Below are positions 211 through 58,786 of a stretch of 64,000 bases of DNA, piece by piece. Within the stretch, counting starts at the first letter, position 1; each line of letters starts with the position of its first letter. Origin of the DNA: Octopus vulgaris (Eukaryota); contig OX597821.1 in assembly GCA_951406725.2 (NCBI GenBank), positions 105,400,001 to 105,464,000 on the forward strand, read 5' to 3'. The notes under the pieces are model-generated. The model had not been told where the DNA came from, made no database searches, and saw nothing but the letters and a program-made list of their open reading frames with translations. A program made the position numbers and the translations under genes.

Positions 211-500
211 AACAATTGCAGTGTGGAAGGTGTTTATAAACCATTTAAGAAACACACAAAAGCCGTTAGATGCACATCAACATATAAATTTAATTTGTAA
301 AAATATTTTCGGCGCTTTCAGACCGCGACCTGTTCACTGACAAAACTTCGTTTTGCAGCACGAAGTTTCGTTAGTGAACATGTCGCGGTGTGAAAGCGAC
401 GAAAATATTTTGACAAATTAAATTTAAATGTTGAAGTGAATCTAACGGTTTTTGCGTGTTTCTTAAATACCTTATAAACACCTTCCACGCTGCAATTGTT
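211..500. repeat. ~290-bp imperfect palindrome (inverted PLE terminal-repeat pair) with one hammerhead motif per arm
   Basis: Starts aacaattgcagtgtggaaggtgtttataa and ends ttataaacaccttccacgctgcaattgtt (reverse complements), centre ~355; same family at 32473-32735. Confidence 0.9.
367..417 (+). ncRNA. Type I hammerhead-like motif, G3:C8 core variant (mirror copy 294-344 on -)
   Basis: ttcgtta-GTGAACA-t-gtcgc[ggtgtgaaa]gcgac-GAAA-atat-TT-tgacaaa. Confidence 0.6.
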
Positions 501-529
501 AAATATATATATATATAGAGAGAGAGAAA

Positions 530-1040
530 ATAGTAAAAAGTGAAACTACAGAAGGCTTGTTTTAAAAGGTTAAAAAATATATATTTGAGTCAATATGTCT
601 GAAGAATATTATAAATGTTATTCTTACAATGACATAGTTTAGAAGAAAGACCGGTTTCGCGTTTAGCTTTTCAAATTTCTTACGTCGTTATGTTTATGTT
701 GAGAGAGTTATCGTTATGTTTATGTTGAAAAGAGTTCTAGATAAGGGGAGGTAATAAGTGATTTCTTCCGGTGTAAGGGAGATGATCGCTTAAAATTTTT
801 TGCCTTTCCCTTGGTGTGAATTTCTCTGTATAAGTATGTTGGAATGGTTAAGTCTGGGCTTGTACTTTTCAATGAAGATTGTTTCCTTGTTTAGTCTAAT
901 TTGAGTTGATGATCCGATAGCACATTGGTAAAATGGAAAGATTAAAAATTGTGGTAGTAGTTGCTTTGCGCATTTCTCAATGTGCTCACTAAAAGGTATC
1001 ATTCTGTATTCTGGGGATGCAATCTGTTGTCGATGCATTA
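530..1040 (-). mobile_element. 5'-truncated Penelope-like element: GIY-YIG C-terminus plus 3' terminal repeat
   Basis: ORF 790..1038 HRQQIASPEYRMIPFSEHIEKC...FPFYQ...KETIFIEKYKPRLN aligns with the endonuclease C-terminus of the 59.5-61.9 kb element (KETLFIAKYRPLLN); flanked by TA/GA repeats. Confidence 0.85.
643..681 (-). ncRNA. Minimal type I hammerhead motif, U3:A8 core
   Basis: Minus strand aagaaa-t-TTGAAAA-gc[taaac]gc-GAAA-ccgg-TC-tttctt; palindromic helix III (accggt). Confidence 0.6.
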
Positions 1041-1459
1041 TATATACACAGAGAGAGAGAGAGAGAGAGAGAGAGAGAGAGAGAGAGAGACAGAGACAGA
1101 GAGAGAGAGAGAGCGAGACAGACAGACAGACAGAATGACAGGGTGTGAGAGTGATTAATTAATTAATAGATATATGCATGGAAACACTAGTACACGATTA
1201 TAAGATACGATCAACACACGGGTATTAACATATAAAGAGAAACTTTAATAGCGACTTCGAAAATTCGGTTGGCTCAGCGTCATCTGATCGATATTTATTC
1301 CTTTCTTTGAACAACTTTCTCTCTTGCGTCTTGCGTTTAGGTTTGGCTTAAGGTTTCGAATGTAGACGGCGTAATCTGACTAATAATTATGTATTGTATA
1401 GACAGGGGGATGGCTTTATAGGAAGAGGAAAATAGAGAATGTTATAGGGATGAATTTGA

Positions 1460-1700
1460 AGGCGCGTCGCTTAGTGGTTAGAGTGTTTGTTTCATGTTCG
1501 TAAGATTGTGATTTCGATTCCAGGAACGGACGACGCGTTGTGTTCTTGAGTCCAACACTTCACTTCACGTTGCTCTCCTCTACTCGCCTGGCAAAGGTGA
1601 GTAATCTTTCAACGGATCGGCGTCCCGTCCAGGTGGGAAATACATATAATATGGAAACCGGGAAACCAGCCTTATGTGTCTGTATGACTCGGGTAAACAA
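1460..1700 (+). mobile_element. tRNA-derived SINE, degenerate
   Basis: ggcgcgtcgcttagtggttagagtg (A box) and gatttcgattcc (B box), followed by ttcttgagtccaacacttcacttcacgttgctc. Confidence 0.7.
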
Positions 1701-2411
1701 CGTTACATATTTCTTTTACGAAATGTATGTATTTGTTTGTACAATTTAGCCTGTGAGGAACATATGGTGGAGAGAGTAGTTCTGATTTGAAACTGGGATT
1801 TGTTAGAAAAGGAGTATGATTCTGTGTTACATTCGGATGATGATACATGTCAATTTAAGATCTTTTTTGTGACCGAACAAGTTTCTTAGTGCGTATATAT
1901 ATGGGAAAGGTGAAAGGGTGTTAGTACGAGGGGGTGACATAGCGAGGGTGACTGATATCAGGGAAGAGGAGAAAAATGTTGTGTAACCGAAAACTATGGA
2001 GTGGCAGTGGGCTGTAAGGTTAGTCCAGCTATCATTCAGGGATATACAGGTCATGCTGCATACATACTTATGTAAGTACATGGAGACATACATATACTCA
2101 CATACACACACAAGCACACACTCTGCAAACACACACAAGCCAACTCTGCACACACATACTTGCATATACACATCAGTACTTTTTAAAACACCAAGGAAGG
2201 GAAACGAAAGTGGGTGTGAGGAATACGTAGATTTAAGGAGAGGTTGTAGTTGTTTTATTTGCTGTCCATCGGAAAGAAACACACTCATATATATATATAT
2301 ATATATATATATATATATATATATATATGTGTGTGTGTGTGTTTGTGTATGTGAGTGTGTGTGTTAGTGTGTGTGAGAGTATGTGTGTTGTGTGTGTGTG
2401 TGTGTGTGTGT

Positions 2412-2710
2412 GAGGCGCAATGGCTCAGTGGTTAGGGTAGTGGACTCGCGGTCGTAGGATCGAGGTTTCGATTCCCAGACCGGTCGTTGTGAGTGTTTAT
2501 TGCGCGTAAACACCTAAAGCTCCACAAGACTACGACAGGGGGTGTTGGCAACCCCTGCTGTACTCTTTCGCCACAAATTTCTCTATTTCGTTCATCATTT
2601 GGCCTGCTCGCTTAGCCAGCGGTGTGGCGTCATTTAAAGGCTAAAACAACGCGAAGTGCATTGTGTGTAGCGACGCGTAGCAAAATCTGATAGACTGATC
2701 GGTCACGGTG
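2412..2710 (+). mobile_element. tRNA-derived SINE family A (head resembles tRNA-Arg)
   Basis: gaggcgcaatggctcagtggttagggtagtggactcgcggtcgtaggatcgaggtttcgattccc; related copies at 16757, 21243, 27794, 49875. Confidence 0.9.
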
Positions 2711-2937
2711 ATATATATATATATATATATATATATATATATATGCAGATACGTACGAACATGCATATGTATGTCTAGTATACACAATCTTAAATTCATG
2801 ATTACCTGTGTTTACGCTTGTAAATGCGCGTGAGTTTCAGTGTGTGTGCTTGTGAGTGTGTTTGTGTATGTCTGTGAATGTGTGCGTTTAAGTGTGTGCT
2901 TGACGTCCTATAACTGTTTGTCTCTCTACTTTTGTAG

Positions 2938-57241: not shown

Positions 57242-57630
57242 ATTTTTAGCTCGTTTTTCCGTAAGCGGATTTATCAAAATAGTGGTTTATAGATAGTTTG
57301 CTTCACATTTCTTACGAAAATTGAGACTGATGATGTTTTAAAAAGAGCGAGACGGAGAGGGGGAGAAATGGAGGGGAAAGAGAGGATCAAGATCAGAAAG
57401 GAAGGTGCAGGGGTTAGAGAGGAGTGAGATTGGGAGAGAGTGAAGATAGGGAAAAGAAAAGAAAGTAGACAGAGAGATTTAGGTGTCTGTGAAGGAAGGG
57501 AAAATAAGGAAGAAAAATGTTTGAGTGGAAGGGGGTAAAAGGAGGGGTAAAGTGTGTCGTTAGGCAAGAAATGAGTGAAAATCACTTCTCTTAAAAAAAG
57601 CGGTGTTTAAACTATAACTACAAGGAGCTA
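57242..57630 (-). mobile_element. PLE 3' tail remnant with U3:A8 hammerhead motif (57242-57282)
   Basis: Minus strand ctatt-TTGATAA-a-tccg[ctta]cgga-AAAA-cgagc-TA-aaaat; pyrimidine-rich UTR like the other PLE tails. Confidence 0.5.
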
Positions 57631-57770
57631 CTGCCGTTACCGAAATCGCAATATAGTAGGTATATACATACATACATATTTATATATAAATATATATATA
57701 TATGTTTATATATATATACATATACATATACAAGTATATGTATTTGTGAAGGGAGCTGACTTCTCGTCGA

Positions 57771-57840
57771 CAACCATGATTGTCACACGCTGATGAAAGG
57801 TAAACATCTTGAAACTCGGGTCCGTGTGTATCATGAGTTG
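57771..57840 (+). ncRNA. Canonical type I hammerhead ribozyme (predicted cleavage after C57822)
   Basis: caac-catgat-tgt-cacacg-CTGATGA-aaggt[aaac]atctt-GAAA-ctcggg-TC-cgtgtg-t-atcatg-a-gttg: all core nucleotides intact, extended bulged helix I. Confidence 0.85.
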
Positions 57841-58051
57841 AAGACGGGGAGGATGACTCCCCTTCACAAATACTGAGAGGACACAGATAGTGTGTCTATA
57901 GCCAGCTGGAGGAGATATATTCCTGGGGCTACAAACTACAGTAGCATCCACCCTTAGGGGTTATCCATATTCAGATGGCAAATATGCGTCACGATATACA
58001 TATACATATATATATATATATATATATATATATATATATTTATGTATATAT

Positions 58052-58384
58052 ATAATTTACAAGATAAGGGCAAAAGAAAAATTCTATTGCCAAATATGCC
58101 GAAAAAAAGAGGATAATTGTCAATAAAGCATTATAATTTATGCGTCTCAAAACAAACCGATAGAAATCTCTAAAAAATTCGTTAATACCGTATTGGTCCA
58201 ATTTCGGGGAAAATTTCTTACGAATTAGCCCCGAAATAGGACCAATACGGTAATAACGAATTTTTTAGAGATTTCTATCGGTTTGTTTCGAGACGCATAA
58301 ATTATAATGTTTATTTACAATTATTGTTTTTTTGTCGGGATATTTGGCAATAGAATTTTTATTTTGCCCTTATCTTTAAATTAT
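58052..58384. repeat. ~330-bp imperfect palindrome between (TA)n tracts
   Basis: aagataagggcaaaa...ccgtattggtccaatttcgggg / ccccgaaataggaccaatacgg...ttttgcccttatctt. Confidence 0.9.
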
Positions 58385-58748
58385 TTATAAATTTAAACTT
58401 TAAAGGTATTTTTTGATATGCTGGCCGTTGATAAAATTGTTTTCCCGATAATATTTTATCCTACATTAGTTATATATATATATATATATATATATATATA
58501 TATATAGATAGATATATATATGTATACATATATATATATATATATATATACATATACATATATATATACATTTACATACATATATATATATTTATTTATA
58601 TATATATATATATATATATATATATATATATATATATATATATATATATATATATATGTATAAGGGTGAAAAGGAACACACGAGTTGATATATATGAAAA
58701 AACAAGTCAAAAATAGAAAATGCTAAAATAATTTTATAGTGAACATTT

Positions 58749-58786
58749 CAGTACCGGTTTCGGTCATTTTGAGACCTTTTCAACTG
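58749..58786 (-). ncRNA. Minimal type I hammerhead motif, U3:A8 core, in the PLE 3' terminal repeat
   Basis: Minus strand cag-TTGAAAA-ggtc[tcaaaat]gacc-GAAA-ccgg-TA-ctg. Confidence 0.75.

What the first reader, a model, noticed from the sequence alone, without database searches (positions are those of the whole stretch)
294..58786. Natural hammerhead ribozyme series covarying at the catalytic 3-8 tertiary pair (C:G, U:A, G:C)
Seen: type I hammerhead scaffolds (helix I, 7-nt core, helix II, GAAA, short often palindromic helix III, UH) with cores CUGAUGA (57790, 43432 -, 42963), UUGAAAA/UUGAUAA (58776 -, 668 -, 57271 -, ~53019) and GUGAACA (374, 331 -, 32609, 32571 -). Established: the active hammerhead needs a Watson-Crick pair between positions 3 and 8, and PLE terminal repeats carry minimal hammerheads. 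Inference: unrelated repeat families fixed different compensatory double substitutions, so selection probably kept self-cleavage. Searches that require CUGAnGA would miss the U:A and G:C forms.
Basis: partly seen in the sequence, partly recalled or inferred. Interest (0 to 1): 0.85.

Follow-up and report, generated by a model that had tools for sequence, protein, structure and literature searches.

The report
Hammerheads using all four 3-8 pairs
Jumping genes in this octopus-like genome carry hammerhead-shaped RNA motifs whose key internal base pair is C:G, U:A, G:C or A:U depending on the family, which likely reflects selection to keep a self-cutting fold, although cutting is untested.

Summary
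Mostly confirmed, and extended. All 11 cores are present; 9 fold as type I hammerheads, 2 are decayed. The pairs are family states, not decay: 5,777 of 6,424 genome matches of the G:C family keep G3, A7 and C8. That family is the terminal repeat of a full-length Penelope-like element (L221); U:A copies lie behind GIY-YIG genes. With 3 and 8 free, 23 of 24 hits in 664 kb are Watson-Crick. New here: a lineage in which G3:C8 and A3:U8 alternate in near-identical context (33 and 59 of 100 listed matches), so all four pairs occur in one genome. U:A is published (2011, 2014); G:C was found in print only as an engineered rescue; A:U not found. A key paper (Lunse 2017) was not held. This scan noted single G3:C8 candidates before, in other genomes. 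Against a simple cleavage story: 98 of 100 inserted copies read through the predicted cut, and a young sister family has C at position 9. Cleavage is untested.

The parts
160..497 (.). Foldback stub of the G:C Penelope-like family: two inverted 5'-truncated terminal repeats, one with the long 3' end, one with the short 3' end next to a TA run
   Evidence: same family as 32475-32795
294..344 (-). Type I hammerhead, core GUGAACA (G3 at 337), extra G after A9; substitutions in helices I and II
367..417 (+). Type I hammerhead, core GUGAACA (G3 at 374); helix I partly decayed
642..681 (-). Type I hammerhead, core UUGAAAA (U3 at 674), 7-bp helix I, 2-bp helix II, palindromic helix III, C17
   Evidence: 4 local homologues
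841..1026 (-). Remnant of the C-terminal end of a PLE GIY-YIG endonuclease, upstream of the 674 hammerhead
   Evidence: 48% identity over 62 aa to the ORF of L146, which hits PF01541; no Pfam hit on its own
32475..32795 (.). Foldback stub of the G:C family: short-ended left arm, long-ended right arm
32534..32584 (-). Intact type I hammerhead, core GUGAACA (G3 at 32577)
32602..32652 (+). Intact type I hammerhead: 7-bp helix I, G3 32609, C8 32614, extra G, 5-bp helix II, palindromic 6-nt helix III, U17 32644 (predicted cut after it)
   Evidence: helices I and II are in the minimum-energy fold; family state
32701..32793 (+). First 31 codons of the element's RT-endonuclease ORF; the family's two 3' ends (about 32734 and 32793) lie inside it
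   Evidence: L221, L223 continue this frame; ends
42897..43024 (.). Foldback stub with two C3:G8 hammerheads (42957- and 42964+), 4-bp hairpin helix III, weak helix II
43360..43445 (-). CUGAUGA core in a repeat; helix II not adjacent to GAAA; decayed or doubtful hammerhead
52851..53090 (.). Foldback stub of a U3:A8 family: core at 53019+ (extra G, 5-bp helix II, 3-bp helix I) and a decayed arm at 52916- (C:A)
   Evidence: 1,996 genome matches, 93 of the first 100 U:A (counted by eye)
57240..57285 (-). UUGAUAA core with AAAA instead of GAAA; decayed or doubtful
57784..57828 (+). Canonical C3:G8 type I hammerhead of a retrozyme-like repeat lineage that also has U:A members
58746..58789 (-). Type I hammerhead, core UUGAAAA (U3 at 58783), 4-bp helix II, palindromic helix III, A17; 3' end of a GIY-YIG PLE family

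Best explanation
These are type I hammerhead motifs of Penelope-like elements and related repeats in which different families fixed C:G, U:A, G:C or A:U at positions 3 and 8, most likely because selection on the transposing master copies kept the pair needed for a slow, probably dimer- or protein-assisted self-cleavage. Shown: the fold, the family states, the place in the terminal repeat, and joint change of 3 and 8. For the G:C family: the motif lies in both terminal repeats of a full-length element, 57 nt before the start codon; most copies begin 18-26 nt upstream of the core and end about 34 or 93 nt into the ORF, mostly at TA-rich sites. Inferred: the RNA starts just upstream of the hammerhead; reverse transcription starts inside the ORF start and runs to the RNA's 5' end, giving the thousands of 150-210 nt stubs; these templates were uncut, so cleavage would be a partial or late event that trims the leader or resolves read-through tandem transcripts. 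From established chemistry: nucleotide 8 acts through its 2'-OH and its base only has to pair with base 3, so any Watson-Crick pair can be tolerated. The window copies are stubs, and most are likely inert.
For: G:C family: 5,777 of 6,424 keep G3, A7, C8; no other letter at 5% or more at either position in 4 runs with 4 organism labels. L221 has the motif at 181 and 4442 around an ORF with RT-like and GIY-YIG-like motifs read by eye and 162 homologues. One lineage: A:U 59, G:C 33, G:U 2, A:C 1, other 5 among the first 100 of 173 matches, both positions free, control 0 (counted by eye). L221 clade: 12 of 12 elements in the tree are Watson-Crick (C:G 7, U:A 3, G:C 1, A:U 1), at least 4 changes; the G:C family's sister is C:G with full support. 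Retrozyme-like lineage: C:G and U:A among relatives. Survey: 23 of 24 Watson-Crick. Engineered C3G/G8C partly rescues a PLE hammerhead while single mutants are dead (PMC11167929).
Against: No cleavage data. 98 of the first 100 of 7,735 matches read through the predicted cut. In the anole PLE, cleavage was not needed for insertion in vitro and no RNA reads ended at the site. The young sister family has C at position 9 in 94 of the first 100 of 3,675 matches, and so does L225, so the core is not strictly constrained in this subclade. The G:C family has a UUU triplet and an all-A/U helix III. Copy counts are not independent events; the independent changes number roughly eight to ten. The DNA tree of the G:C/A:U lineage is noisy (9 changes for 5 states, 25 of 50 branches open). 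Pfam gave no hit for the 777-aa L221 frame. One search also returned non-Watson-Crick hits (A:A on the + strand; G:U and C:A on the - strand).
Confidence: 0.72

Rival explanations
1. The hammerhead fold, including the 3-8 pair, is kept for a job other than cleavage, such as a binding site for the element's protein or control of translation just upstream of the start codon.
For: Inserted copies are uncut (98 of 100); C9 in a young family with many intact ORFs; cleavage dispensable in vitro and protein-dependent in the anole element; Cervera 2014 reports low activity and leaves other functions open.
Against: The 3-8 pair forms in the catalytically active conformation (PMC3884650). U4, G5, A6, GAAA, U16.1 and H17 match the catalytic consensus across families, though my descriptors required them, so this is partly built in.
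Confidence: 0.17
2. The G:C and A:U motifs are vestigial: the swaps happened under relaxed selection and pair by luck, and copy number reflects the host element's success.
For: Few independent events; weak helices in several families; C9 sister family; hammerhead-less Naiad PLEs proliferate well (PMC8557442).
Against: C:G to G:C needs two transversions; no non-pairing family state was seen; half-swapped copies are rare (3 of 100), so the intermediates did not amplify.
Confidence: 0.09
3. The motifs are chance matches in AT-rich foldback repeats or MITE ends.
For: Two of 11 sites fail the fold; Rfam lists no hammerhead; the copies are inverted repeats.
Against: Shuffle controls; position in both terminal repeats of full elements (L221, L228); same architecture in homologous elements of other organisms; two alternative 3' ends and unequal arms fit PLEs, not MITEs.
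Confidence: 0.02

Closest known systems
Minimal and palindromic-helix-III hammerheads of metazoan Penelope-like elements (Cervera and de la Pena 2014, PMC4209133)
   Same: Type I topology, extra base between 9 and 10.1, G10.1-C11.1, palindromic helix III, place in terminal repeats, opposite-strand pairs, and a U3:A8 family (about 1,300 hits in Schistosoma).
   Different: Their 56-row alignment has 53 C:G, 2 U:A and 1 U:G, no G:C or A:U, and no cephalopod. Here G:C is the state of a family of thousands of copies and alternates with A:U in another lineage.
Natural U3:A8 hammerhead variants (Perreault et al. 2011, PMC3088659)
   Same: First natural 3-8 covariation; also a natural U10.1-U11.1 mismatch like that of the 42964 family.
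   Different: In the passages read only U:A is reported at 3-8; the figure was not seen.
Anole Poseidon element PAc (Frangieh et al. 2024, PMC11167929)
   Same: Hammerhead near the ORF start, two internal reverse-transcription starts inside the ORF giving a tail, AT-rich targets, uncut RNA as template.
   Different: There G3:C8 is an engineered partial rescue; here it is the natural state. The hammerhead lies upstream of, not across, the start codon.
Animal non-LTR retrozymes (PMC7229834; bioRxiv 10.64898/2026.07.22.740005)
   Same: The 57790 lineage has canonical type I hammerheads and relatives in tandem units of about 360 bp.
   Different: No 3-8 covariation in the passages read; circular RNA was not tested here.

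Membership tests
Type I hammerhead ribozyme | Three helices around the core in type I order | tested here: met
   9 of 11 sites; not met at 43438 and 57277
Type I hammerhead ribozyme | U4, G5, A6, A9, G12-A15.1, U16.1, H17 present | tested here: met
   9 of 11 sites; 57277 lacks G12. Outside the window a sister family has C9
Type I hammerhead ribozyme | Watson-Crick pair between 3 and 8 | tested here: met
   Family states
Type I hammerhead ribozyme | Canonical core letters C3 and G8; Rfam hammerhead model match | tested here: not met
   G:C and U:A sites depart from CUGAnGA; no hammerhead family among 150 listed of 330 Rfam matches
Type I hammerhead ribozyme | Site-specific self-cleavage after position 17 | not testable with these tools
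   Only contigs were laid; inserted copies are uncut
Type I hammerhead ribozyme | Loop 1-loop 2 tertiary contact | not tested
   Not examined
EN+ Penelope-like element | Single ORF with RT and C-terminal GIY-YIG endonuclease | tested here: met
   G:C family: L221 and L223, ORF in pieces, motifs read by eye, homologues named RT-domain proteins, Pfam blank. 58783 family: PF01541 in L146. Not shown for 53019, 42964, 57790
EN+ Penelope-like element | Direct terminal repeats flanking the ORF, each with the hammerhead | tested here: met
   L221: motif at 181 and 4442, repeats 97.9% identical over 239 nt
EN+ Penelope-like element | 5' truncation, inverted copies, optional 3' tail, TA-rich targets | tested here: met
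   the tail is about 59 nt, longer than the 30-40 nt in PMC8557442
Neptune or Nematis clade | CX2-5CxxC linker before GIY-YIG, and RT phylogeny with reference elements | tested here: inconclusive
   Linker motif seen in L136, L146, L221; no reference sequences, so the clade is not assigned
Non-LTR retrozyme (57790 lineage) | Non-coding tandem units of 170-400 bp with a type I hammerhead, expressed as circles | tested here: inconclusive
   Tandems of about 360 bp in relatives; the window copy is single; circles untested; the size range is recalled

The most novel reading that the evidence does not exclude
The first natural, high-copy hammerhead families with G3:C8 and A3:U8: all four Watson-Crick pairs at the catalytic tertiary pair in one genome, with a G:C/A:U switch caught inside one element lineage, all of them active ribozymes. 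Animal hammerhead counts based on CUGAnGA would then miss a large share, and nature supplies a full compensatory series for the active-site pair.
Probability: 0.45. Interest if true: 0.72.

Novelty: new variant of a known kind. Interest (0 to 1): 0.57.

Why it matters
The 3-8 pair was inferred from a crystal structure and engineered rescue; natural support found in print stops at U:A. Whole families carrying G:C and A:U, the pairs that rescue only partly or that I did not find in print, give direct evolutionary evidence for the active fold and ready-made test sequences. They bear on an open question, what PLE hammerheads are for: covariation says the fold is selected, while read-through copies say cleavage is not part of making an insertion template. 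Practically, a third of the hits in 600 kb sampled at fixed positions would be missed by canonical descriptors.

Tried and rejected
Rfam scan: only microsatellite and foldback look-alikes among the listed matches. The repeat finder was swamped by microsatellites. I first read the G:C family as a purely non-autonomous short element, because no shared upstream ORF appeared in 60 loci; rejected when 8 of 100 listed tail matches shared a continuation that led to full-length copies. MITE reading rejected (unequal arms, two 3' ends, ORF). Homology between the G:C element and the 53019, 58783 or G:C/A:U families outside the motif: none significant; no ORF link for 53019. A pile-up of copy 5' ends at the cut site: not seen. 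Expression: no RNA holder on record among 24 listed runs; contigs give no ends, strand or level. Cofolding of two copies did not isolate a dimer helix III and is not used. One search used a misplaced helix II and is replaced; that alignment was hand-picked by pair type, so its counts (A:U 21, G:C 21, G:U 3, other 2 of 47) illustrate but do not test. The Fisher test ignores kinship and is not used. The overall count (575 against control 523) was not enriched; the A:U family was seen as a recurring sequence in its listing. Literature searches for natural G:C or A:U; hits were engineered mutants only. Not held: Lunse 2017, Przybilski and Hammann 2007, Hammann 2012, Nelson and Uhlenbeck 2008, Lee and York 2008.
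Full report
Setting. The window is G000:C8:105400001-105464000 of a 2.8-Gb genome in 227 contigs, AT-rich and full of microsatellites. A protein that matches G000 fully carries an octopus label from its source.

Observation. All 11 cores are in the sequence. Nine sit in a complete type I scaffold; 43438- has four unpaired bases before GAAA, as do its 2 local homologues, and 57277- lacks G12 and has no local homologue. 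Two more arms were unlisted (42957-, 52916-). A strict descriptor with 3, 7 and 8 free found 6 hits in the window, 5 Watson-Crick, 4 of these at score 12 or more, against 0.05 per shuffle. On the window plus 60 stretches of 10 kb taken at round positions (664 kb) a looser one gave 24 hits: C:G 13, G:C 5, U:A 5 and one A:A that is an offset reading of a C:G hit; shuffles gave about 3 hits with no excess of pairs. Without the window the 18 hits were C:G 11, U:A 4, G:C 2, A:A 1. Rfam listed no hammerhead among 150 of 330 matches.

Family states. An exact 20-mer across the G:C core has 5,777 matches; with 3, 7 and 8 free, 6,424; controls 0. The first 100 listed show only single changes and no C:G form. 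Four runs with four organism labels show no other letter at 5% or more at 32609 or 32614. The 53019 family has 1,996 matches, 93 of the first 100 U:A (by eye). A pattern for C-G-rich helix III gave 5,755 matches against 483 control; its 30 loci were U:A 27, C:G 1, C:A 1, G:A 1; a few of these are offset or chance readings.

What carries them. Two loci of the 58783 family have, about 750 nt upstream, an ORF with a CX2-5CxxC linker and GIY-YIG domain (PF01541, E 5.6e-5). The 674 motif follows a remnant 48% identical to that ORF's end. For the G:C family, 8 of 100 listed tail matches shared a continuation. Of three fetched, L221 is a whole element: motif at 181 and 4442, start codon at 273, an ORF in pieces to about 3471 with RT-like and GIY-YIG-like motifs read by eye; L223 is 96% identical. 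Pfam found nothing, but 162 proteins match at E 1e-30 or better. The predicted cut follows U17 at 216, 57 nt before the start codon. Of 31 arms from the 30 loci, 22 begin 18-26 nt upstream of the core, 7 closer and 2 further. 3' ends cluster near 32734 and 32793, mostly next to TA repeats (55 of 82 in those bins). These are the inverted, tailed, TA-targeted forms described for PLEs (PMC8557442, passages), with the internal starts shown for the anole element (PMC11167929, passages).

Covariation within lineages. First: a search for purine 3 with pyrimidine 8 showed a recurring A3:U8 sequence and G3:C8 look-alikes, with shared flanks and GIY-YIG remnants upstream in 4 loci. With both positions free: 173 matches, control 0; the first 100 were A:U 59, G:C 33, G:U 2, A:C 1, other 5 (by eye). 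Some A:U and G:C copies differ only at these two positions over the 34 listed bases. A tree of 53 chosen copies with both positions masked puts G:C on both sides of the midpoint root and A:U inside, but is noisy and has no outgroup, so direction is not established. Second: the L221 protein found 80 metagenome loci; 10 have a sense-strand motif of the same build. With L221 and its sister P0001 the 12 elements are C:G 7, U:A 3, G:C 1, A:U 1, needing at least 4 changes; the states are not clustered beyond shuffles (42 of 200 as low), and the G:C family's sister is C:G at 100/99 support. The other 70 loci gave no such hit; many end before the terminal repeat. One search also listed one sense-strand A:A hit of different build and antisense G:U and C:A hits. 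Third: the 57790 motif aligns downstream with repeats that are C:G (L129, L307, L308) or U:A (L124, L139, L144, L147).

How it likely works. The base at 8 has to pair with base 3 to place its 2'-OH (PMC6155905, PMC8495972, PMC3884650; passages). Single changes kill a PLE hammerhead and the G:C double swap partly restores it. Master elements that needed the active fold could therefore move between pairs but not settle on mismatches, which is the pattern seen. Short palindromic helices III point to dimer-type folding (PMC4209133). The step that needs cleavage is not template formation: 98 of the first 100 of 7,735 matches read through the site (the pattern's first letter slightly favours read-through). 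I commit to slow, assisted cleavage that trims or separates transcripts (0.72); a non-cleaving role of the same fold is the main rival (0.17). A caution is the young sister family, with 56 scored matches mostly 98-99% identical and many intact frames, which has C at position 9 in 94 of 100.

Literature. PMC4209133: parts 1-2 of 4 of the text and parts 1-2 of 3 of supplement 2 read, figures and supplement 1 not seen; it reports U3:A8 PLE families, and none of 56 aligned rows has G:C or A:U. PMC3088659: passages, U:A only. PMC6765202: passages and part of one section. PMC7229834, PMC6257768: passages, nothing relevant. bioRxiv 10.64898/2026.07.22.740005: part 1 of 5; its supplements are closed. 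Searches for G3-C8, G3C8, A3-U8, G8C with C3G, and 'positions 3 and 8' gave engineered mutants or nothing. Lunse 2017, whose large variant set could hold these pairs, was not held, nor were four other papers. Earlier notes of this scan list single G3:C8 candidates and many U:A ones in other genomes, unchecked.

Verdict. A real, well-supported set of PLE-type hammerhead motifs. C:G and U:A are known; family-level G:C and A:U with within-lineage switching were not found in the searchable literature. New variant of a known kind; interest 0.57; activity untested.

Noticed in passing
L304:437, L305:775, L306:436; L225:2497: A young PLE family with many intact ORFs, sister to the G:C family, has a hammerhead with C instead of A at position 9 followed by the extra G (94 of 100 listed, 3,675 matches); a metagenome relative has U3:A8 with C9 too.
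   Followed up: partly
L270:1710: An A3:U8 hammerhead behind a homologous RT-endonuclease ORF in a metagenome contig, a second origin of A:U outside G000; single copy.
   Followed up: partly
L094 (G000:C2:23579389-23579612): Four 64-nt tandem units holding the G:C core and helix II but not GAAA or helix III, inside a foldback stub; likely template slippage.
   Followed up: no
L221:3470-4420; L305: The 3' untranslated regions of these full-length elements contain microsatellite tracts shared between copies, so the elements may spread microsatellites.
   Followed up: no
L131-L134, L057, L307: Retrozyme-like tandems of about 360 bp with canonical type I hammerheads in U:A and C:G forms.
   Followed up: partly
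L031:136, L055:328, L053:4293, L085:3343, L036:658: C:G hammerhead hits with very long helix II inserts (30-55 nt); several further families.
   Followed up: no
window 29306-29539: Two copies of a 116-bp tandem unit, 78% alike.
   Followed up: no
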